Positions 40,586-53,527 of a DNA stretch of 64,000 bases are shown in pieces; within the stretch, counting starts at the first letter, position 1, and each line of letters begins with the position of its first letter. The notes below the pieces were generated by a model. That model saw nothing but the letters and a program-made list of their open reading frames with translations. It made no database searches and was not told the origin of the DNA. This stretch comes from Escherichia phage SUT_E1620: sequence record OQ939939. One strand, written 5' to 3'. Position numbers and translations under genes: made by a program.

Positions 40586-41101
40586 ATGGCTAAGCAGAAA
40601 AACGCAAAAACTCAGGCAGCTCCGGCAGTTAAAACTTTCGCTCAGACCGAAGCCAATCGTAAGGCTCGTCTGGAACGTCATCTGCGTAAGCATCCTACTG
40701 ATGCTCAGGCTCAGACTGCCCTGAAGTCTGCGGCTCCGGTTCGCCAGAAGCCGAAGGCCAAGAACTCTACTCGCGCAACTGCTAAGCAGGTTGTGTTCAT
40801 CAAGGGTGAAGGTCATAAGTCTGTACCGGTAACTCTGAGCTTTAACGGCGGTGCTGAGATGTTCGCCCGCAACGGTATGGCTCTGAAAGACTACGAAAAA
40901 GCAGTCAATCAGAAGCGTAAGCCAATGGCTGACGTAATGCGTGAATCCCGTGGACAGTTTGGCTCCGTTAAACCGAATATCTTCGGTGTAGAGTACAGCC
41001 GTGACAACGTTCGCGCTCTGTGCTATGGTATCGGTATTAAGTTTACTGGTGCTTCTGATCGTAAATCCGCTAAACCTGCTCGTAAGCGTAAAGCGAAGTA
41101 A
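40586..41101 (+). CDS. Lysine/alanine-rich basic protein, likely highly expressed (unknown function)
   Basis: 171 aa; strong RBS AAAGGAAAAC; host-optimal codons; the 190-aa minus-strand ORF over the same DNA is judged antisense artefact. Confidence 0.65.
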   Translation: MAKQKNAKTQAAPAVKTFAQTEANRKARLERHLRKHPTDAQAQTALKSAAPVRQKPKAKNSTRATAKQVVFIKGEGHKSVPVTLSFNGGAEMFARNGMALKDYEKAVNQKRKPMADVMRESRGQFGSVKPNIFGVEYSRDNVRALCYGIGIKFTGASDRKSAKPARKRKAK

Positions 41102-41107
41102 TGATTG

Positions 41108-41125
41108 ATGGGGCGAAAGCCCCAT
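41108..41125 (+). terminator. GNRA-tetraloop hairpin (weak terminator or processing site)
   Basis: TGGGGC-GAAA-GCCCCA hairpin, weak T-tract; motif recurs at ~41388 and ~43337. Confidence 0.4.
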
Positions 41126-41162
41126 ATATTAACTCTTTCTCTGACTAATTAAGGATATTTTT

Positions 41163-41378
41163 ATGTTCTCTAAGAAACCACGTTCCGTTACTGAAATCGT
41201 TGCTTCCTTTACCACTATTACTGATGAACTTCAAGCTCGTATTGAAGCTGACCAGAAAACTGCTGCTGATATTCAGAAACAGCAAGAAGAACTCGCTCTG
41301 AAACTGGCTGAAACCAATAAGAGTGAAAAATCTGCTCAAACTATTAAGGAAAATATCCTTAAACTGCTGGGCAAGTAA
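41163..41378 (+). CDS. Hypothetical protein (71 aa)
   Basis: ORF with host-optimal codons. Confidence 0.55.
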   Translation: MFSKKPRSVTEIVASFTTITDELQARIEADQKTAADIQKQQEELALKLAETNKSEKSAQTIKENILKLLGK

Positions 41379-41419
41379 TTTAAATCAGGGGGCGAAAGCC
41401 ACTCTTATTTGGAGAAACT

Positions 41420-41632
41420 ATGCGTAACTTCGTTGCAAAGAATGATTTTAACCGTGCTAGCACTCACAAGTCTGCTAGAGACTACACTCGTCTTTCTAAA
41501 CATGAGCTTCTAGAAGAAATCATGGAAGAAAACTGGGATGTTAGTGAAAATGGAACAGACCTGTTTGAAGAAGAGGAACTTCCTCTGAAAGACCCCAAAC
41601 AGTGGGAGTCTATTAAAGAGACAGCTCTTTAA
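41420..41632 (+). CDS. Hypothetical acidic protein (70 aa)
   Basis: ORF with RBS GGAGAAA. Confidence 0.55.
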   Translation: MRNFVAKNDFNRASTHKSARDYTRLSKHELLEEIMEENWDVSENGTDLFEEEELPLKDPKQWESIKETAL

Positions 41633-41662: not shown

Positions 41663-42364
41663 ATGAAATTCAAGCCCTTTGGTATGCTGGACATTGAATC
41701 TCTAGGTACTCCAGGAAATTGCGGTACTACTCATATTGCAATGCCTTCTTTCGCTTTTGTAGCGATGCACGGAATTGATAAAGATCCTGATCTGGTATTC
41801 GTTACTCTAGACGTTCAAGATCAGCTTAATGCGGGTGCTAAGGTAACTGCCTCTACTATTGCATTCTGGATGGATCAAGCTAAAAACAGTCCATCTGCGC
41901 TCCATATTATGGAGGCTCTAAATGGTCGTAATCCTAAACTGATTGCCTTCCGTGATGGTAAGCATCACTGCACTAATGACGTAGGCTCTAATTATGCTGC
42001 CTTCTCTATGGCTCAGAACATTATGGAATTGTCTCTAGGAGATAATGCTCTGTATTACGGCAATGGCCCAGAGTTTGATATGACAATCTACTCTGCAAAT
42101 ACGTTCCATGCCGGAACCAATGAAGAAATAGTTCCGTGGAAATTCTGGAACTTAGGTAACGTTCGATCTTTCCGTAATCAGTGGATGCAAGCTGGTTATA
42201 GCTATAAAGATCTAGAAGCCGAAGGTGCTAGCTGGGCAAAAGCTAAAATGGAAAAAATGGACACCATTCGTTATGGAATCTACCCTGTGAAGCATGATCC
42301 AGCATTCGATGCTTTAGTTGAAAGTTATTGTGTAGCCGTCATGATCGAAAAAATCAAAATTTGA
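41663..42364 (+). CDS. Putative DEDDh-type 3'-5' exonuclease
   Basis: N-terminal MLDIESLG (exo motif I-like DxE), C-terminal HDPAFDAL (motif III-like H...D); weak, by eye. Confidence 0.4.
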   Translation: MKFKPFGMLDIESLGTPGNCGTTHIAMPSFAFVAMHGIDKDPDLVFVTLDVQDQLNAGAKVTASTIAFWMDQAKNSPSALHIMEALNGRNPKLIAFRDGKHHCTNDVGSNYAAFSMAQNIMELSLGDNALYYGNGPEFDMTIYSANTFHAGTNEEIVPWKFWNLGNVRSFRNQWMQAGYSYKDLEAEGASWAKAKMEKMDTIRYGIYPVKHDPAFDALVESYCVAVMIEKIKI

Positions 42365-42668: not shown

Positions 42669-43310
42669 ATGATGACTACTCGTATCTCTAAAACTCGTGC
42701 TCTGGCAACTATCAAGTCTCTGGAAGCTAAAATCCGTAAAGCTACTGAACAACAGCTTTTGATTGCTGTTGGTGAAGGTAAAGACAAGAATCAAGTTGTC
42801 GTTGGTGCTGCAATCGAAGTAGATGCTCTGTCTACTCGTATTAAAACTGATTTCCAGTCTCTGCTGGATATGATGACCCAGCGTGATCATCTGAAAGCAG
42901 CGCTGATCAAGAGCAATGCTGAAACTGTTGTAGAGATCGGTTCCCGCTCTATGACTGTTGCGGAAGCAATCGAAGCTAAGCGTTCTATGGAACTCAAAGC
43001 TCAGTTGCTGGCTAACATGCGTAAGCAGTTCCATGCTGCTACTGTTAAGTTTAACACTCAGAAGGCTCAGTTTGATGCCAAGTATGAGCGTTTGCAGGAT
43101 ACCATGGCTACCCGCGATAAGAAGACTTCCGAGGATGAAGTTAAGATGCAGCTTAACCTGCTGGAACTCAAGAACACTCCGTTCCTGATCGATCCGCTGG
43201 AGCTGGAAAAGCTGATCAAGCAACACGACGAAGAATACCAGGACTTTGCAACCAACGTTGACTTTGTTCTGTCTGAGTCCAACGCCTCTACTTTTATCGA
43301 AGTAGAGTAA
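42669..43310 (+). CDS. Hypothetical coiled-coil protein (213 aa), likely highly expressed
   Basis: Host-optimal codon usage; overlapping minus-strand ORFs judged antisense artefacts. Confidence 0.6.
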   Translation: MMTTRISKTRALATIKSLEAKIRKATEQQLLIAVGEGKDKNQVVVGAAIEVDALSTRIKTDFQSLLDMMTQRDHLKAALIKSNAETVVEIGSRSMTVAEAIEAKRSMELKAQLLANMRKQFHAATVKFNTQKAQFDAKYERLQDTMATRDKKTSEDEVKMQLNLLELKNTPFLIDPLELEKLIKQHDEEYQDFATNVDFVLSESNASTFIEVE

Positions 43311-43684
43311 TAATTTAAAAGACTAGTAAATCGGTAGACGAAAGCCCAAGCATCTTACCTCGCAGCAGCGGTTGAAATACGAGGTTAAATAAGACCGCTG
43401 ACCATACTATAAGGTATAATCTATTGGAGATTATGTTTATTACATCAGACATTTAATCTGACACGTAAAAACAAAAGGTCGTTGGTAGTACCAACACAAC
43501 TTCAAAGATCAACGCTCAAGTATGAAAGCTGAAAAGTTAAAAGCACTCAAACTTCTAACCTTCTAAAGCTAAAAGATGCAAAGTATTCGTTGATGATTCA
43601 AACCCTAGATCAAAGGTACATGGCTCATAAGATATGGCCTGTGGCGCCTCTAGGCTGTTTATCGGTTTACTAGTCTCTCAATTT

Positions 43685-43730
43685 AAAAATGTATTTGCTA
43701 ATTAGTTTAGTTTTCTGTATAATATATTTT
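43685..43730 (+). promoter_or_regulatory. Sigma70-type early promoter
   Basis: TTGCTA (43695-43700), N17, TATAAT (43718-43723). Confidence 0.7.
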
Positions 43731-43753
43731 TAAATTGATGAGACGAGGCTCCT

Positions 43754-44071
43754 ATGACTTTACATATTTTGTTTGATGATGTACGTGACTTAAATGGAAT
43801 GGATATCATCATCAGAAACCCTGATGTAGCGTACGAAATGCTCTATCAGTTACAACTCCAGGGTAATTATCTTTATTTAGATAATGACATGGGTAGTAAA
43901 GTAGAAGGCCACCATTTGTTAAGTCGTATCCTAGAAGATAAAGATTTGTACCCTAAAAAGGTGGTTTTAGTCACCAGCAATTCTGTTGCTGCAGAAAATA
44001 TGCGCCAACAGTTAAAAACAGCTGGTTATCAAGAAAACCCCAATCGTATTGAGTACGATTGGCAGGAGTAA
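43754..44071 (+). CDS. Hypothetical protein (105 aa)
   Basis: ORF after consensus promoter. Confidence 0.55.
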   Translation: MTLHILFDDVRDLNGMDIIIRNPDVAYEMLYQLQLQGNYLYLDNDMGSKVEGHHLLSRILEDKDLYPKKVVLVTSNSVAAENMRQQLKTAGYQENPNRIEYDWQE

Positions 44072-44075
44072 ATAA

Positions 44076-44600
44076 ATGGAAATAACCCAGGAAAACCTAT
44101 TATCCTTATTTCACTACAATAGTGAGGAAGGTAGATTGTACTGGAAAGCTAATCCCAATAAAGCCCCTGCATGGAATGCCAAATGGGCGGATAAGCCTGC
44201 TGGGGCTAAAGATGGGAAATCAATAGTAGTGTCCATTGATAATAAATCATACAGACACCATAGATTAGTATTTTTATATCATAAAGGATACTTACCAGTA
44301 CAAGTTGATCATAAAGATAGGACTAGGCATGACACTAATCCTTTCTGCGATAAAATAGAAAATCTCAGAGACGCCACTCATTCACAAAATAATGCTAATA
44401 AAGATATTGGGAAGGCCAATACTTCTGGCTATAAAAATGTGTATAAAACACATCAAGGGTGGAGGGTTATTGTAAAGAAAGATAAAAAGCCTATAGAGGG
44501 CGGAACCTTTCTTAGTCTAAAAGAAGCGGTAGATGTAGCAAATGATTTAAGGTTTGACCTATTCGGTGAATTTGCACTATACCAGCCGTATAAGGAGTGA
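44076..44600 (+). CDS. HNH homing endonuclease
   Basis: Motif HRLVFLYHKGYLPVQVDHKDRTRHDTNPFCDKIENL. Confidence 0.8.
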   Translation: MEITQENLLSLFHYNSEEGRLYWKANPNKAPAWNAKWADKPAGAKDGKSIVVSIDNKSYRHHRLVFLYHKGYLPVQVDHKDRTRHDTNPFCDKIENLRDATHSQNNANKDIGKANTSGYKNVYKTHQGWRVIVKKDKKPIEGGTFLSLKEAVDVANDLRFDLFGEFALYQPYKE

Positions 44601-45122: not shown

Positions 45123-45293
45123 ATGAAATCAGTTGTAATTATTGGTGTTAATACTCGTGGTATCCGTACTACGAAAACAGTTAAAACTACTAACGTTGCT
45201 GAAATTACTACAAACCCTAAGAAGTTTGATTTCGCTAAAGTCTCGGCAGTTATGACAGAACAATCTTTTAACCAAGCACTGGGAATTAAATAA
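45123..45293 (+). CDS. Small hypothetical protein (~56 aa)
   Basis: ATG after GAGAGGAAG RBS downstream of promoter; below track size cut-off. Confidence 0.35.
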   Translation: MKSVVIIGVNTRGIRTTKTVKTTNVAEITTNPKKFDFAKVSAVMTEQSFNQALGIK

Positions 45294-45736
45294 TGGAAGA
45301 GAATATTCTAGATGTTTTGCGTAGGGCTTTGCAGGAATCTAAGGTTGATGGTTCTGATAAAGAAGTAGCTAAAAGCTACCAGACCATAATCGGAGATCTT
45401 CAGCGTGTTGATAAAGACTTCATTACTTCTGAACAGTTTGTATCTTATCTAAAAGCTCAACTGAAAAGCATTAATCAGACGAAAGCTAAACTTCACGGTC
45501 AAGACCTTGATAATTATAGCTTGCAGTCTGCTCAGTATGAGTATATACTGAACAAATGGCTACAACAGTATCTGCCGCCTCAGTTATCTGATTCTGAGAT
45601 TCGCAAATACTTTGCAGAATTAGTTAAGTTGAACCCTGGGATTACAAAAGGTATGCTGATGAAAGCGATTAAGGAAGAGTTTCCTGGTCGTTACGACGGT
45701 GGCATTGCTGCTCAGGTTGCTGGCGAATTTAATTAA
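45293..45736 (+). CDS. GatB/YqeY-domain protein
   Basis: 147 aa; pattern YLPxQLSxxEI...GITKGMLMKAIKEEFPGRYDGGIAAQVAGE parallels YqeY C-terminal region. Confidence 0.55.
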   Translation: MEENILDVLRRALQESKVDGSDKEVAKSYQTIIGDLQRVDKDFITSEQFVSYLKAQLKSINQTKAKLHGQDLDNYSLQSAQYEYILNKWLQQYLPPQLSDSEIRKYFAELVKLNPGITKGMLMKAIKEEFPGRYDGGIAAQVAGEFN

Positions 45737-45780
45737 AAATTGATTTGCTAAACGCCTCAAAATTCTGTATAATAGATTCA
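45733..45780 (+). promoter_or_regulatory. Sigma70-type early promoter driving ORF-free tract
   Basis: TTGCTA (45745-45750), N17, TATAAT (45768-45773), CATAAATTAGAGAAC box; no ORF for ~830 nt downstream. Confidence 0.7.
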
Positions 45781-46621
45781 TAAATTAGAGAACAGCGAGC
45801 CGATTACGCTGAGTGAGTTTAGTGATTCCTACTAGGATAGCTATTCCACTGAATAGAGTCGGTGAGTTGGAGACTAGTAAGTACTCTGAGAGAGGCTACG
45901 AGCTAACGCTTATTGCTATTGATAGGGAACTGAAAATCTGCGGAAAACTCGGGAGCTGTCCCGAAATCTCGTAAACTCTTCTCTAGTTTATGTTAGTGGG
46001 GTGTCGAACTGACTTATGTGATAACACTGCCGTCCTAGTATAAACGGTAATATCAAACCGTAACTGGTGGAAGATGCAGGTTCGAATCCTGCGGTCGGAA
46101 AGAATCAGATAACTCGGGCTTATACCGGATAAGCATTCGCTGCTGGAGTACATACTATGACGGTTCAGGAGGTACGCCGCCTGATCAGTATTAGGTTAGA
46201 ATCGAAACAGCTAAACCACGAGGAAACCTGACGGCCTCAACCAAACTCGGAACTCGGGATCACTGCCTAGTGTGTGCCCCGTTTAACATAGAGACTAGGC
46301 ATCGAAAATCGGAGGTGTGATTCTACCAGACCGCGTGAATATGAGAGTGGGAAATGCTGGCATGAGAGATGTCACTAATGGTGCCCAATAGTACAGGTAA
46401 TTCGCGATAATTCCTGTTGAGTGGCAGCAGTAGGCTGGGAGTCATGACCTAAGCCTAACCGAGTTCTTCACATACGGAGAACATAACCACAAAGTCACCC
46501 TGACTTAAACTGGAGGATATTGTCTGACGGAAGGGCTGCAGAGCTTAATCTGAGGGGGCTGACCCTACCTACCGTCGGGTATCTTTAAGAGCTTTTATAA
46601 GAGTTCTTAAAAATACCTAAA

Positions 46622-46693
46622 CGGGGTGTAGTCTAAGGGATAGGCAGGAGTCTTCTAAATTCCTTTATGCAGGTTCGAATCCTGTCACCTCGG
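46622..46693 (+). tRNA. tRNA-Arg (anticodon TCT)
   Basis: Hand-folded cloverleaf: acceptor CGGGGTG/CACCTCG, anticodon loop CTTCTAA, T-loop GGTTCGAATCC, 3' GCCA. Confidence 0.75.
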
Positions 46694-46722
46694 CCAATTT
46701 TATTAACTGTTAGGAAAATAAA

Positions 46723-46923
46723 ATGAAAACACGATATATAGTAAAAGTAGTAGGTGAACATTCACAAGTAAATACCACCGATGTTACAGCACTAGCATTT
46801 GAGGTAATCTCCGGTATAGTCATATTTCATAATGGAGATATCAAAGCTCCTGAATTTGCTGTGGATGCTAGCCTGTTTATTTCTGCAACTAAAGTAACTG
46901 TAGTAGCTAACTCTTCTAAATAA
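46723..46923 (+). CDS. Hypothetical protein (66 aa)
   Basis: ORF with RBS AGGAAAA. Confidence 0.5.
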   Translation: MKTRYIVKVVGEHSQVNTTDVTALAFEVISGIVIFHNGDIKAPEFAVDASLFISATKVTVVANSSK

Positions 46924-46934
46924 TAAGGAAATAT

Positions 46935-47879
46935 ATGTTTACTAAAAACACTAAAGAACTGACTTCCGATCAAAAAGTAATTCGTACTATTAAACGTTGG
47001 GGTGTTGGTGCTGTAGTTGGTCTTGGCGCTCTTATTCTGGCTCTCAATTCCTATACAGTTGTTCAGGACGGTACGGTTAAAACTCAGACTTTCCTGGGTA
47101 AAGTTAGTCCTAATCCTGTATTGCCGGGGTTCCATATTGTTAACCCATTTGCTTCTTTTGATACTTTTAGTACGAAAGATATTTCCATGAAACTGGATAA
47201 ACTTCAGGTTCCTAGCCAGGATAAGTTTAAGTCTACTGTTGACATTACCGTTATGTTGCAGTTTGATGGTGCTAAAGCTCCTATGAACCGTGTTAACGCA
47301 GGTACTCAGGATCAAGCTCTGAACAAGTACGTTGAAGAGAAGATGCTGTCTACGATTCGTGAGTTTGGTAAGTCTGTACCAAAAGCACAAGATCTGTTCG
47401 ACGCTAAGATTCAGGCTCAACTGCAAACCGCTATTCAGCAAGAAGTAGAAGAGTACGCGCGCCCTTATGGTTACACCGTTAAGCAAGTATTCCTTCAGGA
47501 TATTACTCTGCCACCGGTAATTATGGAACAGGTACAGAACACCAAAGTTCGTGAAGAACAAGTTAACGCTGCAAAAGCTGAACTGGCTCGTGTTGAACAA
47601 GAAGCACAGCAGAAAGTTAAGCAAGCTGAGGCAGATCGTTCCGCTCGTGAAAATATGGCAGTAGCTAACGAACGTGACGCAGATGCTAAACTGTACGCAG
47701 CTAAGAAAGAAGCTGAAGCTAACGCCGCTCTGCAACGTACCATTACTCCTGAAATGATTCGTTGGAAGCAGCTGGAAGTTGAAATGCTTCGTGCTGAAAA
47801 ATACCAAGGTGGTGTACCGCAGACTGTTGTCGGTACTGGCTACGATGGTCAAATGATCATGGATATGCGTAACAAGTAA
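46935..47879 (+). CDS. SPFH/band-7 (prohibitin-like) membrane protein
   Basis: N-terminal TM helix (WGVGAVVGLGALILAL), SPFH-like core, C-terminal coiled coil; 341-aa minus-strand ORF here judged antisense artefact. Confidence 0.7.
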   Translation: MFTKNTKELTSDQKVIRTIKRWGVGAVVGLGALILALNSYTVVQDGTVKTQTFLGKVSPNPVLPGFHIVNPFASFDTFSTKDISMKLDKLQVPSQDKFKSTVDITVMLQFDGAKAPMNRVNAGTQDQALNKYVEEKMLSTIREFGKSVPKAQDLFDAKIQAQLQTAIQQEVEEYARPYGYTVKQVFLQDITLPPVIMEQVQNTKVREEQVNAAKAELARVEQEAQQKVKQAEADRSARENMAVANERDADAKLYAAKKEAEANAALQRTITPEMIRWKQLEVEMLRAEKYQGGVPQTVVGTGYDGQMIMDMRNK

Positions 47880-47902
47880 TAGTTACACGTAATCTTCGAA
47901 CC

Positions 47903-47938
47903 AAGCCCGCGTTTCCTCCGAGAGCGCGGGCTTTTCTG
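47903..47938 (+). terminator. Rho-independent terminator (first of tandem pair)
   Basis: AAGCCCGCG...CGCGGGCTT hairpin followed by TTCTG. Confidence 0.75.
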
Positions 47939-47954
47939 TATTTAAGGCAAAAGA

Positions 47955-47992
47955 AAAAGCCCCTTACCTTTCGGCAGGGGCTTTTGTTTTTT
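47955..47992 (+). terminator. Rho-independent terminator (second of tandem pair)
   Basis: AAAAGCCCCT...AGGGGCTTTT hairpin followed by GTTTTTT. Confidence 0.8.
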
Positions 47993-48053
47993 GGTTTAGA
48001 ACCATACTCTTGGTGTACAGCAACCACCCATACGGGAGAGAGAGGAATCAAAC

Positions 48054-48350
48054 ATGAAACGCATTGTACTTGCATTGACTCTAGTATCTACTTCTGTATT
48101 TGCTGCTCCGCAACAGGAACTTTGTCAAGTTCAGGTTTGTAATAAGTTAGAACGATTTACTTTGGATATTTGGTCACACATTAAAGATAATATGGGTGAA
48201 CAGTGTTTTGATATTGTTCTGCCAAAAGAGCAGGCTGTTCCTGGTGCTGTTCTTAGCTCAGAGTCACGTTGGTGGCAGGGTTCTTCTATCAACCCAACTA
48301 AGAAGTCAGTGACACGTATCAAACAAGTATATCAGTGCAACGTTCAGTAA
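48054..48350 (+). CDS. Secreted small protein (signal peptide)
   Basis: 98 aa; N-terminal MKRIVLALTLVSTSVFAAPQ signal-peptide-like; RBS GAGAGAGG. Confidence 0.6.
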   Translation: MKRIVLALTLVSTSVFAAPQQELCQVQVCNKLERFTLDIWSHIKDNMGEQCFDIVLPKEQAVPGAVLSSESRWWQGSSINPTKKSVTRIKQVYQCNVQ

Positions 48351-48351
48351 A

Positions 48352-48398
48352 ATTTCACTTGCTTAATGCCGAAATTTTCTGTATAATATATTCATAAA
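48352..48398 (+). promoter_or_regulatory. Sigma70-type early promoter directly upstream of tRNA-Ser
   Basis: TTGCTT (48359-48364), N17, TATAAT (48382-48387); tRNA starts ~15 nt after -10. Confidence 0.75.
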
Positions 48399-48401
48399 TT
48401 T

Positions 48402-48492
48402 GGAAGATTAACCCTAAAGGTAAGGGAGCTGTTTGCTAAACAGCCAGTAGCTGTGGAGACACGGTGTGCCAGTTCGAATCTGGCATCTTCCT
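48402..48492 (+). tRNA. tRNA-Ser (anticodon GCT), long variable arm
   Basis: Acceptor GGAAGAT/ATCTTCC, anticodon stem-loop GCTGT-TTGCTAA-ACAGC, T-loop GCCAGTTCGAATCTGGC, CCA encoded. Confidence 0.75.
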
Positions 48493-48500
48493 CCAAATTT

Positions 48501-48575
48501 GGTTCTCAAGCTCATTTGGTATGAGCCGTCGCCTCATAAGCGAAAGGTAGGTAGGTTCGAATCCTCCGGGAGCCA
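48501..48575 (+). tRNA. tRNA with CAT anticodon (Met, fMet or Ile-lysidine)
   Basis: Acceptor GGTTCTC/GGGAGCC, anticodon loop CTCATAA, T-loop TTCGAAT, CCA encoded. Confidence 0.7.
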
Positions 48576-48595
48576 CCAATTAACTAGGAGACTAT

Positions 48596-48781
48596 ATGTC
48601 TAGATTCTATGAAATGAAGAAAGCATTAGAAGAATGTCGGTGTAAGGATTGTCATGGTGGTGGTAGGCAGGATGATGCAGAACCTGGGGATATTTTCTAT
48701 AGAGAATGGGAATGTCCTACATGTAAAGGTACTGGTATCAACCCTGAATATGCAATTTGTCTAGACATTGAGCGAGGCTAA
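48596..48781 (+). CDS. Small zinc-ribbon protein (61 aa)
   Basis: CxCxxC...CPTC cysteine pairs; RBS AGGAG. Confidence 0.5.
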   Translation: MSRFYEMKKALEECRCKDCHGGGRQDDAEPGDIFYREWECPTCKGTGINPEYAICLDIERG

Positions 48782-48782
48782 G

Positions 48783-49121
48783 ATGGATATTTTTACTACT
48801 CCGGCAATAAACCTTTTAGGTGTTGGCTTGTTCCAAGCTACGGTGTATCGTACTGATGATTCTACTGATGTGGTAACGTTCATCGTACCTGAGTTCTTCC
48901 TAGAAAAGTTCTTTGAAGAGTTTGAGCAGTTCCGTGAAGAACACAATGCTCATTCCGATATGGAAGATCTAGCAGCTATGTTCCCTGCGGTTTACGGCTA
49001 TATCTTTGAAGGTAATGGCCTAGATCTTAATAAATCTGAACTCGTTGAACTTAACTGGGGCATCAATTTTGAAGTTGGCTCTCCATTCCCTCGATATTTC
49101 CAGGGTTTAGAGATTCGCTAA
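48783..49121 (+). CDS. Hypothetical acidic protein (~112 aa)
   Basis: ATG (MDIFTT) immediately after upstream stop; acidic composition. Confidence 0.55.
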   Translation: MDIFTTPAINLLGVGLFQATVYRTDDSTDVVTFIVPEFFLEKFFEEFEQFREEHNAHSDMEDLAAMFPAVYGYIFEGNGLDLNKSELVELNWGINFEVGSPFPRYFQGLEIR

Positions 49122-49129
49122 GATTACAT

Positions 49130-49203
49130 GGGGGTGTAATCGAATTGGCATAGGTACTGGACTTAAAATTCAGGTTTTGTGGGTTCGAATCCCACCACCC
49201 CTA
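49130..49203 (+). tRNA. tRNA with TAA anticodon (Leu-type decoding UUA) but short variable loop
   Basis: Acceptor GGGGGTG/CACCCCT, anticodon stem-loop CTGGA-CTTAAAA-TTCAG, T-loop GTGGGTTCGAATCCCAC, A73, CCA. Confidence 0.6.
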
Positions 49204-49357
49204 CCAAATTAAGGAAATAAAATGAAAGCTATTAAGAAAGCACTACGTAAATTTATGTACTGTCGTTTTCATAGCATCAAGGCTTCAACTAATGGTACGA
49301 CTTACGATCGCTATGATCCTAAGTTTGGCTTACATTCTAAATAACTGGAGATAATAA

Positions 49358-49564
49358 ATGGCTAATCCTGAAATTACGGCACAACGCTTTATGCTGAAAG
49401 GAATTATTGCTGAAGCAGGCATGACAGAAGAAGTTGCAGATTTTCAAAAGCAGTTCCTAAATATTCTCACTCAAGCCAAAGAGCTAGGAGAGAAAGAACA
49501 TGGCGCGGCTATTATGGCAATCACATTGGTTGGGCTTGATCTGGCAGAAGAATCAGGAGTTTAA
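49358..49564 (+). CDS. Hypothetical protein (68 aa)
   Basis: Six-frame ORF with RBS GGAGATAA. Confidence 0.5.
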   Translation: MANPEITAQRFMLKGIIAEAGMTEEVADFQKQFLNILTQAKELGEKEHGAAIMAITLVGLDLAEESGV

Positions 49565-49577
49565 CTCCTCCAAGCAG

Positions 49578-49625
49578 AAATTTTAAAAATGTACTTGCTT
49601 TTTACTTAAGATTTCTGCTATAATA
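49578..49625 (+). promoter_or_regulatory. Sigma70-type early promoter
   Basis: TTGCTT (49595-49600), N18, TATAAT (49619-49624). Confidence 0.65.
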
Positions 49626-49654
49626 GTTATATAAATTGATGAAGGAGTTAACGA

Positions 49655-49930
49655 ATGTCAAAACGTGTTACTGCAACTGGTGTTGAAAGTGCTGTTTGTA
49701 AATCCTGGGGTGGCTGGGAAGGTGAGATTGAATGGCTTTATTTCTACGATGTAGAACTTCTGCCGGAAGTCAAAGCTAAATGTGTGGAAGCTGGTATGGC
49801 TCCTGATGCAAAGGCTGATATCGAAATCACCATGACTAAGCTAGAAGGTCGTGTAATTACGCTCAATGATGATTATGAAGAAGTGTTCGAGCTTCCATTC
49901 AAACTGAGTGTCACTCCTAGCTTCGAGTAA
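49655..49930 (+). CDS. Hypothetical acidic protein (91 aa)
   Basis: ORF after promoter with RBS GAAGGAG. Confidence 0.55.
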   Translation: MSKRVTATGVESAVCKSWGGWEGEIEWLYFYDVELLPEVKAKCVEAGMAPDAKADIEITMTKLEGRVITLNDDYEEVFELPFKLSVTPSFE

Positions 49931-49957
49931 CTGATATAGCACTGAGCAAGTTCTTTA

Positions 49958-50000
49958 AAATTTGACTTGCTCAGTCCTTCAAAACTTGATATAATATTTA
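49958..50000 (+). promoter_or_regulatory. Sigma70-type early promoter upstream of tRNA cluster
   Basis: TTGCTC (49967-49972), N17, TATAAT (49990-49995). Confidence 0.65.
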
Positions 50001-50118
50001 TCTAATTTGGAAACATATCTGAATGAGAAGTAATTAAGCGAGTTGCTTTTAGGGGTAAAGTCAGGAAATCCTGAAATATTCCACCTTGAGTTTAACCGAC
50101 TTACTTTTCATTCAAATA

Positions 50119-50196
50119 TGGGGGATTGGCTCAGTGGCGACGGCGCCTGGCTGTAGACCGGGTATATCACGCGGAGGTTCGAGTCCTCCATCCCCC
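50119..50196 (+). tRNA. tRNA-Tyr (anticodon GTA)
   Basis: Acceptor GGGGGAT/ATCCCCC, anticodon stem-loop CCTGG-CTGTAGA-CCGGG, extended variable region, T-loop GGAGGTTCGAGTCCTCC, CCA. Confidence 0.7.
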
Positions 50197-50207
50197 ACCA
50201 AATTTAA

Positions 50208-50279
50208 TGCACCTATCGTCTAATGGTTAGGACATCAGGATTTCAATCTGAGAATCGGAGTTCAATTCTCCGTGGGTGT
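50208..50279 (+). tRNA. tRNA-Glu (anticodon TTC), isotype tentative
   Basis: Acceptor GCACCTA/TGGGTGT, anticodon stem-loop TCAGG-ATTTCAA-TCTGA, T-loop CGGAGTTCAATTCTCCG, GCCA end. Confidence 0.6.
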
Positions 50280-50291
50280 GCCAATTAATAA

Positions 50292-50359
50292 TTGGGGTAC
50301 GCATAGGTTGCTAGTGGGCCTCCAAAACCCATGAAAAGGTTTCGAATACCTTTACCCCT
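50292..50359 (+). tRNA. tRNA-Trp (anticodon CCA), 5' boundary uncertain
   Basis: Anticodon loop CTCCAAA, T-arm AAGGTTTCGAATACCTT, 3' TACCCCT-G-CCA; short D-arm, position-1 mismatch. Confidence 0.5.
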
Positions 50360-50377
50360 GCCAGATAAGAAAATAGT

Positions 50378-50941
50378 ATGTTTAAGACAATACCTGAATT
50401 TCCTATGTATAAAATTTCTGAAACAGGCAAAGTTTACTCATTGCATGTTAACAGAGAAATAGCTACTTATCTTAACAATAAAGGTTATCCATGTGTTAAG
50501 CTAAGTAAAAATGGTGTTGAGCATACTCTTTTAATATCTAGACTATTATGCAGAGTATTTAAAGATTTAGAAGATCTTTATTCCTCTAAAGAAGTAGACC
50601 ATAAAGATAGAAATCCGGCAAATTTTGAACTAAGCAACCTACAAGTTCTTAGTAAAGAAGAGCACGTAATAAAAACATGTTCTGATAACAATATTAGTAG
50701 AAGAACGGATGTTTGTCCTATTTGTGGTGATACTAAGCATAAATCCTCAAAAGCCTGCTTAAAGTGTACTGCTTCGGCTAGGATTAAGAGTAGAGATATT
50801 ACAAAAGAAGATATAGAGTATTGGGTACGAAACTTCTCCTGGGCTAGAGCTTCAAGAGAACTTGGACTATCTGATAATGGACTCCGAAAGAGATATAAGG
50901 CTCTTGGGGGAGACCCTAAAAATATTTGCACCTTTAGCTGA
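50378..50941 (+). CDS. HNH homing endonuclease with C-terminal DNA-binding module
   Basis: HNH core (EVDHKDRNPANFELSNL), Cys cluster, C-terminal LSDNGLRKRYKALGG shared with ORF 52201..52782. Confidence 0.75.
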   Translation: MFKTIPEFPMYKISETGKVYSLHVNREIATYLNNKGYPCVKLSKNGVEHTLLISRLLCRVFKDLEDLYSSKEVDHKDRNPANFELSNLQVLSKEEHVIKTCSDNNISRRTDVCPICGDTKHKSSKACLKCTASARIKSRDITKEDIEYWVRNFSWARASRELGLSDNGLRKRYKALGGDPKNICTFS

Positions 50942-50999
50942 GATGGATTAGCGCTTGCCTGAAGAGCTTGAGAGGTTGGATCGTTACCAACGGGGTGCA
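50928..50999 (+). tRNA. Candidate tRNA-Phe (anticodon GAA) with non-canonical T-loop and weak anticodon stem
   Basis: 7/7 acceptor pairing GCACCTT/GGGGTGC, D-stem GCTG/TAGC, anticodon loop CTGAAGA, T-stem GTTGG/CCAAC with loop ATCGTTA (54/58 swapped), A73-CCA; anticodon stem has two U-U mismatches. Confidence 0.45.
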
Positions 51000-51019
51000 C
51001 CAATTTGAAGGAGATGCTG

Positions 51020-51292
51020 ATGCATCCTGAAAACTTCTTTATTTACTGTGCGGATAAGTCGCTGAAACGTAGAATTAACAAAGTCTATCATTATCGTGCC
51101 AGTCAACAGCCTTATGTTTACGCTTTTGACGGAGATCACATTCCACTAGATCAATTAGCGTGTGATTACATGGTATTGAAGAACTTTGATGAGACAAAGA
51201 TCTCAAGCGTTCATAATCGACAGAATCCACTAACGTGGAAGTATAAGAAGAAAAAGAAAGGCATCATATTTCTGAAAAATGTAGTTGCTTAA
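51020..51292 (+). CDS. Hypothetical protein (~90 aa)
   Basis: ATG after AAGGAG RBS (track ORF starts at upstream TTG). Confidence 0.5.
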   Translation: MHPENFFIYCADKSLKRRINKVYHYRASQQPYVYAFDGDHIPLDQLACDYMVLKNFDETKISSVHNRQNPLTWKYKKKKKGIIFLKNVVA

Positions 51293-51320
51293 CCGCTTAA
51301 AGTTCTGTATAATTATTACA
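51280..51320 (+). promoter_or_regulatory. Sigma70-type early promoter
   Basis: TTGCTT (51285-51290), N16, TATAAT (51307-51312). Confidence 0.6.
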
Positions 51321-51342
51321 TAAATTGAACTGGAGAAGCAAC

Positions 51343-51567
51343 ATGACTGAACAAGAACTGAAAGAACGTAAGCTGGTAATGCTTCGTTTACTAAACATTT
51401 TCTCTGGTATGGATGGTGGAATTGACTTCATTAATCTACGTTGCTTTGTAGAAGAAGCAGAAGGCGAATCTATCACTAAAATTCTTAAACATATGGGATT
51501 ACTTTTAGATGCTGCTGGTGTAGCTACTGAATATAAACTAGAAGATTTGCCGGAGCGTGTTAAATGA
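51343..51567 (+). CDS. Hypothetical protein (~74 aa)
   Basis: ATG (MTEQELK) after GGAGAAG RBS; track start 51325 lies at the transcription start. Confidence 0.5.
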   Translation: MTEQELKERKLVMLRLLNIFSGMDGGIDFINLRCFVEEAEGESITKILKHMGLLLDAAGVATEYKLEDLPERVK

Positions 51568-51755
51568 AAAAGTTAGTCAAATTTAAGTGTTGTGGTTCTG
51601 AACATATCTTCACACGTTTGCGTGAATTTAAAATGTGTAAGTGTGGTAAATCAGGCTATGATGCTGGAGACGGTTATTACTCCCGTACTCTAGGAGATTT
51701 CAACGATTTAGAATTCGTTGATCTCGAAAAACAAGATAAATCGACCGTTGGCTGA
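51564..51755 (+). CDS. Small Cys-rich protein (63 aa)
   Basis: CCGSEH...CKCGKSG zinc-ribbon-like; 3' end overlaps tRNA-Cys. Confidence 0.5.
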   Translation: MKKLVKFKCCGSEHIFTRLREFKMCKCGKSGYDAGDGYYSRTLGDFNDLEFVDLEKQDKSTVG

Positions 51756-51814
51756 ATGGCTTAGGCGGAGGCCTGCAAAACCTCCTTATGTGAGTTCGAA
51801 TCTCATGCGGTCGT
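51742..51814 (+). tRNA. tRNA-Cys (anticodon GCA)
   Basis: Acceptor CGACCGT/GCGGTCG, anticodon stem-loop GAGGC-CTGCAAA-ACCTC, T-loop GTGAGTTCGAATCTCAT, T73, CCA. Confidence 0.7.
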
Positions 51815-51825
51815 CCAAATTTTTA

Positions 51826-51905
51826 GGGTCGTTAGCCAAGCGGTTTGGCGGTGGACTGTTAATCCATGTCGAAAGACAACGTAGGTTCGAATCCTACACG
51901 GCCCG
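51826..51905 (+). tRNA. tRNA with GTT (Asn) anticodon and a 13-nt hairpin variable arm
   Basis: Acceptor GGGTCGT/ACGGCCC, D-stem GCCA/TGGC, anticodon stem-loop GTGGA-CTGTTAA-TCCAT, variable arm GTCGAAAGACAAC, T-loop GTAGGTTCGAATCCTAC, G73, CCA. Confidence 0.6.
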
Positions 51906-52011
51906 CCATATTCTGTGTAGAGTTAAGTAAACCGGTAGCCAACCAGTTATCATTGCTGATATCGAATTCAGTCACAGATACCATTTTTCATTAACAACTG
52001 AGGAAATAGAT

Positions 52012-52197
52012 ATGACAACTCGTGCAATTGCTCGACTAGAAGCTGATCGTGATAGTCTGATTAATAATATTAAGGTTCGTGATAATATTATTAAGGCTCT
52101 GAAAGCTGAACTTCTTGAAGAACTTCAAGGTCAAGTAGAGCGTCGTGAAGCTCTAAAAGAGGTTGAGGAAGCTATCGAAAAACTCAAAGCTGAGTAA
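52012..52197 (+). CDS. Small coiled-coil protein (61 aa)
   Basis: ORF with RBS GAGGAAATAG. Confidence 0.5.
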   Translation: MTTRAIARLEADRDSLINNIKVRDNIIKALKAELLEELQGQVERREALKEVEEAIEKLKAE

Positions 52198-52200
52198 ATT

Positions 52201-52782
52201 ATGCACGGAATATCCTTACCCATTCCAGGGTTTGAGGAGTACTTAGTAAGTTTGGATGGGTTAGTATTTAGTATCAAATCAAACAAAATACTAACCCCAA
52301 TAACCAGTAATTACGGATACTTATCTATACGTCTCCATAAAAATGGTCAACAGAGAAATACCGGTGTACATAGGATTTTAGCATGTGCATTTAAGAAATT
52401 ACCAAGTCTAGACTCTGAACTAGAAGTTGACCATATTAACACAGACATTACTTATTGGGGTCTTAATAACTTACAAGTGCTCACAAAAGAGCAGCATCTA
52501 GAAAAGACTTTAAAAGATAAAGGATTTAGTAAACTAAACCATGATAATTGTTGTAAGGATTGTGGTAAAGCTATTTCTTTAAAAGCTGAAAAATGTCAGG
52601 AGTGCTCTTCACATAAACCAAAAGATATCTCTATAACTAAAGAAATAATCGAGGTTACAGTAAGAGAGCTAGGCTGGTCAGGTGCAGGGAGAAAGTTAAG
52701 TTATTCAGATAATGGGTTGCGTAAAAGATACACTTCTTTAGGAGGCAATCCTAAAGAACTTAAAAAGTTAAAGGTACTATAG
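52201..52782 (+). CDS. HNH homing endonuclease (paralog of 50378..50941)
   Basis: HNH core (EVDHINTDITYWGLNNL), Cys cluster, C-terminal LSYSDNGLRKRYTSLGG. Confidence 0.75.
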   Translation: MHGISLPIPGFEEYLVSLDGLVFSIKSNKILTPITSNYGYLSIRLHKNGQQRNTGVHRILACAFKKLPSLDSELEVDHINTDITYWGLNNLQVLTKEQHLEKTLKDKGFSKLNHDNCCKDCGKAISLKAEKCQECSSHKPKDISITKEIIEVTVRELGWSGAGRKLSYSDNGLRKRYTSLGGNPKELKKLKVL

Positions 52783-52844
52783 TCTAACGGTTAGGATACT
52801 CCCCTGTCACGGGAGAGGTAGGGTTTCGATTACCCTTAGTACCG
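52773..52844 (+). tRNA. tRNA-Asp (anticodon GTC)
   Basis: Acceptor GGTACTA/TAGTACC, anticodon stem-loop CTCCC-CTGTCAC-GGGAG, T-loop AGGGTTTCGATTACCCT, G73, CCA; first 10 nt overlap HNH gene stop. Confidence 0.75.
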
Positions 52845-52853
52845 CCAAATTAT

Positions 52854-53459: not shown

Positions 53460-53505
53460 AACTCATTTGCTATTTCACTTAATTCTCTGTATAATATATC
53501 TTATA
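53460..53505 (+). promoter_or_regulatory. Sigma70-type early promoter upstream of tRNA-Pro
   Basis: TTGCTA (53466-53471), N18, TATAAT (53490-53495). Confidence 0.7.
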
Positions 53506-53527
53506 AAGTGAGTTAACAAAGAATATT

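What the first reader, a model, noticed from the sequence alone, without database searches (positions are those of the whole stretch)
43321..43675. ~355-bp non-coding element bounded by imperfect inverted repeats
GACTAGTAAATCGGTAGAC at 43321 is mirrored by GTTTATCGGTTTACTAGTC at ~43657-43675 (10-bp perfect core GACTAGTAAA/TTTACTAGTC). The interior has no ORF but contains a -10-like TATAAT (~43415), a 15-nt perfect palindrome GTTGGTAGTACCAAC (~43480-43494) and clustered AAAGCT/AAAAG repeats (43500-43590). It could be a MITE-like insertion, a structured RNA closed by a long-range stem, or a protein-binding locus such as an origin or partition site.
Basis: seen in the sequence. Interest (0 to 1): 0.5.

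Follow-up and report, generated by a model that had tools for sequence, protein, structure and literature searches.

The report
New structured RNA gene, T5-like phage
The "inverted repeat" is the closing stem of an unannotated ~355-nt folded RNA gene that always follows one uncharacterised protein gene, in phage T5 relatives, many other phages and many bacteria, and matches no catalogued RNA family.

Summary
The window is a T5-like Salmonella phage. The two repeat arms (43321-43340 and 43656-43675) form a 20-bp helix, P1, and every "mismatch" in it is a G·U pair on the + strand.

P1 closes a structured non-coding RNA with these parts:
- a conserved junction;
- an H-type pseudoknot;
- variable hairpins;
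- 10-14 tandem 7-nt units (U-N-A-A-R-G-N);
- a conserved 3' stem domain (AAAUCC...GGCUG).

The same architecture, with quite different helix sequences, lies directly 3' of homologues of the 213-aa gene 42669-43310 (T5.085, mislabelled "tail fiber"). A covariance model of the 3' domain found it in 48 of 49 phage loci, 76 of 80 bacterial-genome loci and four cultured phages of other taxa.

In the anchored helices there are 370 Watson-Crick pairs, 66 G·U and 1 A·C. That pattern means selection acts on a + strand RNA, not on DNA.

Rfam 15, ARAGORN, the T5 RefSeq annotation and the literature searches give no name for it. The MITE, origin and partition-site readings are rejected.

The function is unknown. 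My best inference is a ribonucleoprotein or sponge-like RNA whose heptad array is a multivalent binding platform, often placed in phage tRNA islands as GOLLD and ROOL RNAs are.

The parts
42669..43310 (+). Partner protein gene (213 aa; T5.085 / phrog_1491, annotated 'tail fiber protein', which is probably wrong). It always lies immediately upstream of the RNA.
43321..43340 (+). A weaker extension reaches back to 43311.
   Evidence: Pairs with 43656-43675 over 20 bp: 16 Watson-Crick pairs and 4 G·U. T5 shows a G-C to A-U swap at the outer pair. Across 26 members the helix is 98.1% paired, with up to 6 pair types per column.
43341..43356 (+). J1 junction (AAAGCCCAAGCAUCUU; family consensus AAAAC..AACUUA). 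It contains the 5' strand of the long-range helix P2 (GCAUCUU, 43350-43356).
   Evidence: Conserved motif immediately after P1 in family members. P2 pairs with AAGAUGC at 43573-43579. Cognate J1/array pairing scores higher than non-cognate (Wilcoxon p = 0.005).
43357..43400 (+). H-type pseudoknot. Stem s1 is ACCUCG 43357-62 with CGAGGU 43380-85. Stem s2 is CAGCGGUU 43366-73 with GACCGCUG 43393-400.
   Evidence: Found at the same position, with unrelated sequences, in all 26 aligned members: for example L031 CCUCC/GGAGG with UGGGGA/UCCCCA. Real score 27.9 against 11.3 for shuffles; 5 of 440 shuffles reach the real score.
43416..43495 (+).
   Evidence: Sequence. Hairpin 43445-61 shows an A-U to C-G compensatory change within T5-like phages, and a different loop in phage atrejo. 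In other members this region varies in length and content, and in L037 it holds a whole tRNA-Thr.
43502..43605 (+). Array of about 12 tandem heptads U-N-A-A-R-G-N (UCAAAGA UCAACGC UCAAGUA UGAAAGC UGAAAAG UUAAAAG ...). It ends in the near-invariant unit UCAAACCC (family consensus UNAAAUCC). The 3' strand of P2 lies at 43573-43579.
   Evidence: Mean autocorrelation is 0.445 at lag 7 and 0.428 at lag 14, against about 0.22 at lags 3-4, in 26 members. Substitutions between T5 and the window keep the motif but not any reading frame.
43604..43654 (+). 3' domain. Helix Pa is CCUAGA 43604-09 with UCUAGG 43649-54. It encloses the bulged hairpin Pb at 43622-43639. The conserved flanks are AAAYCC and GGCUG.
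   Evidence: RNAalifold: 5 pairs, 0 broken in 34 sequences, 4 pairs with changes on both sides. The result is the same on 51 sequences. Covariance model R1 gives 50.5 bits, E = 3e-12, and a single hit in the 64-kb window. Pb was seen by eye and is compensated in L031 (GGC/GCC to GAC/GUC), but it was not tested statistically.
43656..43675 (+). A weaker extension reaches 43685.
   Evidence: As for the 5' strand of P1.
43695..43723 (+). Sigma-70-type promoter of the next gene (TTGCTA-17-TATAAT). It marks the downstream limit of the RNA and is not part of it.
   Evidence: T5 RefSeq annotates a promoter at the equivalent place (43067-43141).

Best explanation
Shown. 43321-43675 is the gene for a ~355-nt structured non-coding RNA read from the + strand. 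It is co-transcribed with, or placed directly behind, the 213-aa gene 42669-43310.

Its fold has these elements:
- a long closing helix, P1;
- a junction, J1, whose 3' half pairs with the far end of the repeat array (helix P2; moderate support);
- an H-type pseudoknot;
- a variable hairpin region;
- a run of about 12 seven-nucleotide units, U-N-A-A-R-G-N;
- a conserved 3' stem domain, Pa/Pb, flanked by AAAYCC and GGCUG.

The protein gene plus this RNA form a two-part module conserved in T5-like phages, in several unrelated groups of large phages (usually inside or beside tRNA gene arrays), and in many Bacillota chromosomes.

Inferred. The P1/P2/Pa core and the pseudoknot make a compact, nuclease-resistant frame that displays the heptad array. 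The array then acts as a multivalent binding platform, one site per 7 nt, in the way CsrB displays GGA motifs. The most likely ligand is an oligomer of the co-encoded protein, giving a dedicated ribonucleoprotein; otherwise it is a conserved host RNA-binding factor. P1 (12-27 bp), downstream tRNAs or a terminator would define the ends of the RNA by RNase III or RNase P processing or by termination.

My sub-confidences are: a real + strand structured RNA family, 0.93; a functional partnership with the upstream protein, 0.6; the heptad array as a multivalent protein-binding platform, 0.35.
For: RNA rather than DNA, and on the + strand. In the motif-anchored helices P1 and Pa of 26 diverse members there are 370 Watson-Crick pairs, 66 G·U, 1 A·C and 5 other.

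Structure.
- P1 is 98.1% paired against 57.8% in shuffles; Pa is 100% against 72%.
- For Pa, RNAalifold finds 0 broken pairs in 34 and again in 51 sequences, with changes on both sides in 4 of 5 pairs.
- The pseudoknot is present in all members: score 27.9 against 11.3 for shuffles, and 5 of 440 shuffles reach the real score.
- P2: cognate pairing exceeds non-cognate, p = 0.005.
- The window RNA folds with z = -5.1.

Heptad array. Periodicity of 7 in all members.

Linkage to the protein gene.
- Covariance model R1 finds one + strand hit 200-340 nt after the partner gene in 48/49 phage loci and none among 13 control loci.
- It finds the same in 76/80 bacterial-genome loci and in phiPsa374, phiL47, BM15 and Mydo.
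- In a protein-independent pattern scan, the three loci that clearly show the RNA hallmarks (L107, L132, L136) all carry the partner gene upstream. L111 has the partner and a weak R1 hit (E = 0.12). L134 gave a weak R1 hit (E = 0.13, Pa-like 5-bp pairing) without a partner gene.
- No other neighbouring gene is conserved.

Transcription unit. A terminator-like hairpin plus U tract follows the RNA in 33/74 bacterial and 12/45 phage loci, against 22/363 control windows. tRNAs lie within 2.5 kb in most phage loci, directly abut the RNA in several, and one is embedded in L037.

No name. Rfam 15 has no match in the window or in 12 other members. T5 RefSeq leaves the stretch unannotated. No paper was found.
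Against: - There is no expression or end-mapping data. Transcription is inferred from gene order, strand and terminators.
- The partner protein is acidic to neutral (pI 5.2-6.8 in most members). It has no recognisable RNA-binding fold. That weakens the idea that it coats the array.
- Thermodynamic folding does not predict the array to be especially unpaired: mean pairing probability 0.56, similar to other regions. 'Displayed single strand' therefore rests only on my not having found a conserved helix in the array; no alignment-based search for one was run.
- P2 is clear in only about half of the members.
- The pseudoknot stems were located by a pairing search, so their '100% paired' figure is true by construction. 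Only the shuffle control is informative.
- Adjacency was partly built in, because most loci were retrieved through the protein.
Confidence: 0.5

Rival explanations
1. Decoy or sponge for a host factor, acting independently of the upstream protein. The heptads (U-NAR-RG; NAA/NAG triplets, A-rich, partly Shine-Dalgarno-like in high-GC members) would soak up a conserved cellular RNA-binding activity and so protect phage tRNAs or mRNAs. Candidates are a ribonuclease or toxin, the 30S subunit or protein S1, or a tRNA-targeting defence nuclease.
For: Many short repeated motifs is the design of known sponges (CsrB/RsmZ; established knowledge). The RNA sits in tRNA and RNA-repair neighbourhoods in phages: an Rv2179c-like exoribonuclease, cREC_REC and YqeY genes and 27 tRNAs in the window, and tRNA arrays in BM15, Mydo and phiL47. 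The acidic partner protein is a poor candidate for coating RNA. High-GC members have UCAGGA/UGAGGA units.
Against: The near-obligate linkage to one protein family would be left unexplained. The module also occurs at a conserved chromosomal, non-prophage-looking site in Lysinibacillus, where an anti-defence decoy makes less sense. No host factor with a 7-nt register is identified.
Confidence: 0.2
2. Cis-acting 3' element of the partner mRNA or operon. It would be a processing and stability cassette: the long P1 stem as an RNase III site and 3' exonuclease block, separating the upstream mRNA from downstream tRNAs. It would have no trans function.
For: It always begins within a few to about 40 nt of the partner stop codon, with no terminator in between. 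P1 is a 12-27 bp duplex made of the 5' and 3' flanks, as in rRNA and T7 RNase III sites (established knowledge). It is often followed by tRNAs or a terminator.
Against: A processing stem does not need a conserved pseudoknot, conserved junction sequences, a 7-nt-periodic array of 10-14 units and a conserved 3' domain kept across phyla. Ordinary 3' UTR stabilisers are short hairpins.
Confidence: 0.12
3. RNA-only self-assembling particle analogous to the GOLLD and ROOL nanocages. The UUAA/UUUAAA-rich heptads or the conserved loops would mediate contacts between RNA molecules.
For: The genomic habit is the same as for GOLLD and ROOL: phages and prophages, often beside tRNA islands, also non-prophage sites, and a tRNA embedded in a variable region (PMC5737381; PMC12286853). 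Many heptads contain the self-complementary UUAA.
Against: At about 260-400 nt it is smaller than ROOL (about 580 nt) or GOLLD (about 800 nt). It does not match either model. GOLLD and ROOL have no dedicated protein partner, whereas this RNA has one. No oligomerisation evidence can be obtained with these tools.
Confidence: 0.08
4. Two-gene toxin-antitoxin-like or defence/anti-defence cassette in which the repeat-bearing RNA neutralises or regulates the protein (type III-like).
For: The distribution is patchy and mobile-looking: phages plus scattered chromosomal sites, two copies in Paenibacillus xylaniclasticus, and a compact gene + RNA + terminator unit. Type III antitoxins are repeat RNAs (established knowledge).
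Against: The repeats are 7 nt, not 34-45 nt. The RNA is downstream of the protein gene, not upstream and separated by a terminator. The protein is not a recognisable nuclease and has no PADLOC hit. The structured core has no counterpart in type III antitoxins.
Confidence: 0.07
5. DNA-level element: a MITE-like insertion, a replication origin with iterons, or a partition site. These are the reader's other options.
For: Terminal inverted repeats and clustered short direct repeats are also seen in such elements.
Against: The 66 G·U against 1 A·C in the helices shows strand-specific, RNA-level selection. There is a single copy per genome. It is fixed in all 440 T5-like records. It lies at a conserved chromosomal site in Lysinibacillus. 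It is followed by intrinsic terminators on the same strand.
Confidence: 0.02
6. Degenerate relative of tmRNA. The topology is similar: end-pairing helix, long-range helix, first pseudoknot, A-rich unpaired stretch, 3' hairpin; and it follows a protein gene as ssrA follows smpB.
For: The order of elements is similar. From memory there is a local likeness to the E. coli ssrA 5' region and PK1; this was not computed.
Against: ARAGORN finds no tmRNA. The Rfam tmRNA models do not match at E<=10. There is no T-arm, no acceptor stem and no CCA end. There is no conserved tag ORF, because substitutions are non-synonymous in every frame. The partner protein is helical and acidic, unlike SmpB.
Confidence: 0.01

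Closest known systems
GOLLD and ROOL RNAs (Rfam; large 'ornate' RNAs of phages and prophages)
   Same: Structured non-coding RNAs of unknown function. They are encoded by phages and prophages, often next to tRNA islands, and are also found at sites that do not look like prophages. Some carry a tRNA inside a variable region (PMC5737381, PMC12286853). All of this holds here.
   Different: There is no sequence or structure match to either model. This RNA is smaller (about 260-400 nt). It has a 7-nt tandem array and a near-obligate protein-gene partner, which GOLLD and ROOL lack.
OLE RNA with OapA/B/C; also the drum, skipping-rope and DUF3800-I motifs
   Same: A structured RNA class genetically tied to one uncharacterised protein family. 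In the drum, skipping-rope and DUF3800-I cases the RNA ends in an intrinsic terminator (PMC5737381; PMC7936274). Here the RNA is tied to the T5.085 family and often ends in a terminator.
   Different: The RNA and protein families are unrelated. Here the gene order and strand are fixed (protein gene, then RNA). This module is also carried by virulent phages of Gram-negative hosts.
CsrB/RsmZ-type protein-sponge RNAs
   Same: Many copies of a short motif displayed on one RNA. This is a likeness in how it may work, not a tested homology.
   Different: The motif here is U-N-A-A-R-G-N with a strict 7-nt period, not GGA in hairpin loops. Here the array is framed by a conserved pseudoknot and junction core. 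The ligand is unknown.
tmRNA (ssrA) with SmpB
   Same: The element order is alike: terminal helix, long-range helix, pseudoknot, A-rich stretch, 3' hairpin. The RNA gene follows a small protein gene.
   Different: There is no tRNA-like domain, CCA end, tag ORF or SmpB-like partner. tmRNA detectors do not match.
T5 'rnaX' and other T5 stable RNAs of unknown function
   Same: Unexplained non-coding RNAs in the same early/tRNA region of the T5 genome.
   Different: rnaX is a separate locus (T5 40848-41566, equivalent to window ~45740-46620). The element studied here (T5 ~43131-43504) is not annotated at all.

Membership tests
tmRNA | tRNA-like domain: acceptor stem, T-arm and 3' CCA | tested here: not met
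   ARAGORN reports no tmRNA in the window or in 45 related loci. Rfam tmRNA models do not match at E<=10 or E<=5. The 3' end is a 20-bp helix strand with no CCA.
tmRNA | Conserved tag-peptide reading frame after pseudoknot 1 | tested here: not met
   The 7-codon AUG ORF at 43432 loses its start in phage atrejo. Substitutions between T5 and the window in the array change the amino acid in the only open frame.
GOLLD / ROOL | Match to the family covariance model | tested here: not met
   No hit at E<=10 in window 43200-43800. No hit at E<=5 in L048, L045, L062 or L036.
GOLLD / ROOL | Genomic habit: phage or prophage, beside tRNA islands, and also non-prophage sites | tested here: met
   This is a shared habit only, not evidence of homology.
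MITE / small transposable element | Multiple copies, presence/absence polymorphism and target-site duplication | tested here: not met
   One copy in 64 kb. Present at the same site in all 440 T5-like records. The flanks AAAA|GACTAG...CTAGTC|TCTC show no duplication.
Replication origin / iteron or partition site (DNA element) | Selection acts on duplex DNA, so non-Watson-Crick positions in repeats should show no strand bias | tested here: not met
   66 G·U against 1 A·C on the + strand in P1 and Pa across 26 members.
Type III toxin-antitoxin antitoxin RNA | Tandem repeats of about 34-45 nt upstream of an endoribonuclease toxin gene, separated from it by a terminator | tested here: not met
   The repeats are 7 nt. 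The RNA is downstream of the protein gene. The protein is a helical bundle with no nuclease or PADLOC match.
RNase P RNA | Match to the bacterial, archaeal or minimal RNase P models (P4 and the conserved regions CR-I to CR-V) | tested here: not met
   No Rfam hit at E<=10. The GAAAGCC/GGCU likeness to P4 that I recalled from memory is not kept in relatives.
CsrB/RsmZ sponge | Repeated GGA motifs that bind CsrA | tested here: not met
   The heptad consensus is U-N-A-A-R-G-N. GGA appears only in a few high-GC members.
New family proposed here (heptad-array RNA with T5.085-like partner) | P1 closing helix, J1, H-type pseudoknot, 7-nt array, AAAYCC-Pa-GGCUG domain, located directly 3' of a T5.085-family gene | tested here: met
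   The window element has all of these features. Its R1 score is 50.5 bits, E = 3e-12.

The most novel reading that the evidence does not exclude
This is a previously unrecognised, widespread class of structured RNA that works with a dedicated orphan protein as a new kind of ribonucleoprotein. It would be carried by model phage T5, by about 750 cultured phages of unrelated lineages (usually inside their tRNA islands) and by many Bacillota chromosomes. Its 7-nt tandem array would be the working surface, acting on the translation or tRNA apparatus or on phage-host conflict.
Probability: 0.45. Interest if true: 0.9.

Novelty: categorically new. Interest (0 to 1): 0.8.

Why it matters
T5 is a classical model phage, yet this conserved ~355-nt RNA gene and its partner (mislabelled 'tail fiber protein' in hundreds of records) have gone unannotated.

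- Scale. The partner family has about 3,450 clusters at 50% identity and occurs in 749 of 50,697 cultured phage records. The RNA accompanies it wherever I looked.
- A third case. It adds a protein-linked class to the unexplained large RNAs of phage tRNA islands (GOLLD, ROOL). Unlike those, it occurs in genetically tractable systems: T5 in E. coli K-12, Salmonella phages, Bacillus phages and Lysinibacillus. The long-standing question of what such RNAs do could therefore be tested by deletion, pull-down and structure determination.
- An unusual feature. I know of no described bacterial or phage RNA with a strict 7-nt repeat array held in a pseudoknotted frame.
- Practical use. The mislabelled 'tail fiber' annotation should be corrected, and genome annotators need a covariance model for this RNA.

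Tried and rejected
- Rfam 15, at gathering and permissive thresholds, on the window and on 12 other members gave only tRNAs, a group I intron, one skipping-rope RNA beside the element, and noise.
- ARAGORN found no tmRNA.
- Likenesses to the tmRNA 5' region and PK1, to RNase P P4 (GAAAGCC/GGCU) and to the hammerhead core (CUG...GAAA) were recalled from memory. None is supported by the models or conserved in relatives.
- Small ORFs do not hold up. The SD+AUG 7-codon ORF at 43432 loses its start in phage atrejo. The 23-codon frame across the array changes by non-synonymous substitutions.
- TATAAT at 43415 is not a promoter: there is no -35, and it lies in a hairpin stem.
- There are no conserved neighbours beyond the partner gene.
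- Phage K lnc001, an abundant RNA beside tRNA-Met (PMC9241854), is not a member: no R1 hit, and gp233 is unrelated.
- A predicted low pairing probability for the heptad array was not found.
- The supplement of the 10,006-csRNA paper is not held, so I could not check whether a fragment of this RNA is among those candidates.
- The inner hairpin Pb and any tertiary contacts could not be tested, because MAFFT and the covariance-model alignments are out of register there.
- Ideas that the heptads are complementary to, or mimic, anticodon loops (NAA/NAG triplets; Lys/Glu/Gln) or T-loops were considered and left as untested numerology.
Full report
**1. The observation**

The window is a T5-like phage. 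The element is 100% identical to Salmonella phage SE19 (Epseptimavirus) and 92-100% identical across 440 phage records, 437 of which hold at least 80% of it.

Read as RNA on the + strand, every one of the 19 positions pairs, and the three DNA 'mismatches' are all G·U. One more G·U (G43340·U43656) extends the helix to 20 bp, and a weaker extension reaches 43311/43685.

TATAAT (43415-43420), the palindrome (43481-43495) and the AAAG-rich repeats (43500-43600) are also there. The stretch has no + strand ORF of 30 aa or more. It folds far better than shuffles: -100.1 kcal/mol, z = -5.1.

It lies between the stop codon of a 213-aa gene (42669-43310) and the promoter TTGCTA-17-TATAAT (43695-43723) of the next gene. 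In T5 RefSeq the equivalent stretch (about 43131-43504, between T5.085 and an annotated promoter) carries no annotation.

**2. It is one member of a large family**

I searched viral contigs for relatives of the upstream protein. That returned 27 T5-like loci and about 50 loci in which the protein is only 29-42% identical. Almost all of the distant loci also have an ORF-free gap of 300-750 nt right after the gene.

blastn sees almost nothing there. Even so, the sequences share one architecture:
- a 5' arm that pairs with a 3' arm (P1);
- a junction with consensus AAAAC..AACUUA (J1);
- an H-type pseudoknot;
- zero to four variable hairpins;
- 10-14 tandem heptads, U-N-A-A-R-G-N;
- a near-invariant last unit, UNAAAUCC, which enters a stem (Pa) enclosing a hairpin (Pb);
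- GGCUG, followed by the 3' arm.

For example, the window pseudoknot CCUCG/CGAGG + CAGCGGU/ACCGCUG is CCUCC/GGAGG + UGGGGA/UCCCCA in L031.

**3. Tests of the structure**

- P1 and Pa. For 26 diverse members anchored on the conserved motifs, P1 (12 bp counted) is paired in 98.1% of cells, against 57.8% (maximum 64.1%) when partners are shuffled among sequences. Up to six pair types occur per column. Pa is paired in 100% of cells against 72%.
- Pa by RNAalifold. On a MAFFT alignment it recovers Pa with 0 broken pairs in 34 sequences and changes on both sides in four of five pairs. The result is the same on 51 model-aligned sequences.
- Pseudoknot. The pseudoknot finder scores 27.9 on real sequences against 11.3 ± 7.9 on shuffles, and 5 of 440 shuffles reach their own real score.
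- P2. A long-range helix between J1 and a site about 20-45 nt before AAAUCC (window GCAUCUU 43350-56 with AAGAUGC 43573-79) is better for cognate than for non-cognate pairs (p = 0.005). It is clear in only about half of the members.
- Within T5-like phages. The hairpin 43445-61 shows an A-U to C-G swap, and the outer P1 pair shows a G-C to A-U swap.

**4. RNA rather than DNA, and which strand**

In P1 and Pa there are 370 Watson-Crick pairs, 66 G·U pairs and only 1 A·C. On the other strand, G·U pairs would be C·A mismatches. The conserved entity is therefore an RNA transcribed from the + strand, the strand of the flanking genes.

That rules out cruciform, iteron and origin readings. The - strand MFE is lower in the window but does not survive this comparison.

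**5. The heptad array**

The last ~115 nt before AAAUCC have mean autocorrelation 0.445 at lag 7 and 0.428 at lag 14, against about 0.22 at lags 3-4 and 0.24-0.25 at lags 10-11. The units are listed.

The region is A-rich and G-poor. Differences between T5 and the window keep the motif but not any reading frame. I found no conserved helix inside the array, although no alignment-based search for one was run. Thermodynamic folding does not predict it to be unusually open either. 'Single-stranded display' is therefore an inference.

**6. Linkage and distribution**

A covariance model of the 3' domain (R1) gave these results:
- exactly one + strand hit, 200-340 nt after the partner gene, in 48 of 49 phage loci;
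- one hit in the whole 64-kb window;
- none in 13 unrelated control loci.

A DNA-pattern scan that did not use the protein returned mostly chance matches. Three loci showed clear RNA hallmarks (L107, L132, L136), and all three carry the partner gene upstream. L111 has the partner and a weak R1 hit (E = 0.12). One locus without a partner, L134, gave only a weak, probably chance, match.

The protein is also found in at least 189 species-level bacterial genomes, mostly Bacillota: Lysinibacillus, Solibacillus, Paenibacillus, Brevibacillus, Bacillus, Exiguobacterium and clostridia. R1 finds the RNA in 76 of the 80 loci fetched.

In Lysinibacillus the module lies at a conserved chromosomal site, between an MFS transporter gene and a convergent rlmCD-like methyltransferase gene. 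In Paenibacillus xylaniclasticus the RNA is complete and ends in a textbook terminator.

Among cultured phages, the protein is in 749 of 50,697 records: T5-like phages, Otagovirus, 949-like lactococcal phages, Bastillevirinae, Mydovirus, Vibrio, Erwinia, Aeromonas and others. I confirmed the RNA in phiPsa374, phiL47, BM15 and Mydo, where it fills an unannotated 400-490-nt gap, three times within or beside tRNA arrays.

The protein family has 3,450 clusters at 50% identity. No other neighbouring gene is conserved. tRNAs lie within 2.5 kb in most phage loci, some abut the RNA, and L037 has a tRNA-Thr inside it. A terminator-like hairpin plus U tract follows the RNA in 45% of bacterial loci and 27% of phage loci, against 6% of control windows.

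**7. The partner protein**

It has no Pfam, NCBIfam or PADLOC family. PHROG 1491 calls it 'tail fiber', which is very unlikely for an early-region gene that also occurs in bacterial chromosomes.

The AF2 model (pLDDT 85) is an elongated helical bundle with a few short strands. PDB matches are generic coiled coils, and viral matches are uncharacterised ~200-aa proteins. Most members are acidic to neutral. The invariant residues include a C-terminal D-x-x-L-S-E-S-N motif.

**8. What it most likely does**

Shown: a structured + strand RNA family, a fixed protein-gene-then-RNA module, a frequent terminator or tRNA at the 3' side, and a 7-nt array framed by a conserved core.

Inferred: the core (P1/P2/Pa junction plus pseudoknot) protects and positions the array, and the array offers 10-14 equivalent sites to a multimeric ligand. 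That ligand is the co-encoded protein (a dedicated RNP) or a conserved host factor (a sponge). P1 may be an RNase III processing stem.

The rivals are a pure cis 3' element, an RNA-only assembly like GOLLD or ROOL, a toxin-antitoxin-like cassette, a DNA element and a tmRNA relative. They are weighed in the rival list; the last two are effectively excluded.

**9. Comparison with what is known**

The nearest in habit are GOLLD and ROOL: phage and prophage RNAs near tRNA islands that also occur elsewhere, sometimes with an embedded tRNA (PMC5737381, PMC12286853). Neither model matches, and those RNAs have no dedicated protein.

OLE RNA with its Oap proteins, and the drum, skipping-rope and DUF3800-I motifs, are precedents for an RNA tied to one protein family. 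tmRNA shares only the order of elements.

No Rfam 15 family, no annotation and none of the searched papers describe this RNA. The library does not hold subscription journals. I also could not read the candidate lists of PMC10690425, so an earlier unnamed mention cannot be excluded.

**10. Verdict**

The 'structured RNA closed by a long-range stem' reading is right, and the MITE and origin readings are wrong.

The element is a member, and in effect the T5-group founder, of a widespread RNA class with an obligately linked orphan protein that is absent from Rfam 15 and that I could not find described. Its function is still open. Interest is 0.8.

Noticed in passing
window 45737-46621: An ~880-nt, almost ORF-free stretch between the YqeY-like gene and tRNA-Arg. 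It corresponds in position to T5 'rnaX, stable RNA with unknown functions' (NC_005859 40848-41566). This is a second unexplained RNA locus in the window.
   Followed up: no
window 44076-44600: An HNH_3 endonuclease ORF sits between the cREC_REC gene and the cell-wall hydrolase gene. It is absent at that place in T5 and in SE19, so it is probably a homing-endonuclease insertion.
   Followed up: partly
window 41663-42364, 43754-44071, 45293-45736: The RNA's neighbours are RNA-metabolism genes: an Rv2179c-like 3'-5' exoribonuclease, a cyclic-phosphate-processing receiver (cREC_REC) protein and a YqeY-like protein. A 27-tRNA array follows (46622-57996).
   Followed up: partly
window 43678-43695 / 43721-43738: An 18-nt inverted repeat (94% complementary) brackets the promoter of the downstream gene. 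It could be an operator or a 5'-leader hairpin.
   Followed up: no
L037 3229-3305; L046, L060 and L071 variable regions: In one member a complete tRNA-Thr gene sits inside the RNA, between the pseudoknot and the heptad array. Others carry T-arm-like hairpins (GCUGGUUCGAAYCCAGC) at the same place.
   Followed up: partly
L252 4830-4896 and 5192-5254: A Parabacteroides-labelled MAG contig has two 3' domains of the RNA in tandem after one partner gene.
   Followed up: no
L207 5019-5147: In Paenibacillus xylaniclasticus a skipping-rope RNA (RF02924, 54 bits) lies about 100 nt after this RNA. The same genome has a second copy of the module (L212/L204).
   Followed up: no
L219-L238 and other Lysinibacillus loci, ~4000-6400: In 15-17 Lysinibacillus species the module sits at one conserved chromosomal site. 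An MFS transporter gene lies upstream and a convergent 23S rRNA m5U methyltransferase (RlmCD-like) gene downstream, with no phage genes in view.
   Followed up: partly
L062 912-1188; L038 1265-1337: A group I intron (RF00028, 64.8 bits) lies upstream of the partner gene in one metagenomic phage. Another carries a tRNA with anticodon UUA (a putative ochre suppressor).
   Followed up: no
L291 (Staphylococcus phage K 13595-14229): The abundant phage K lncRNA next to tRNA-Met (PMC9241854) occupies a similar genomic setting but is not a member of this family.
   Followed up: yes
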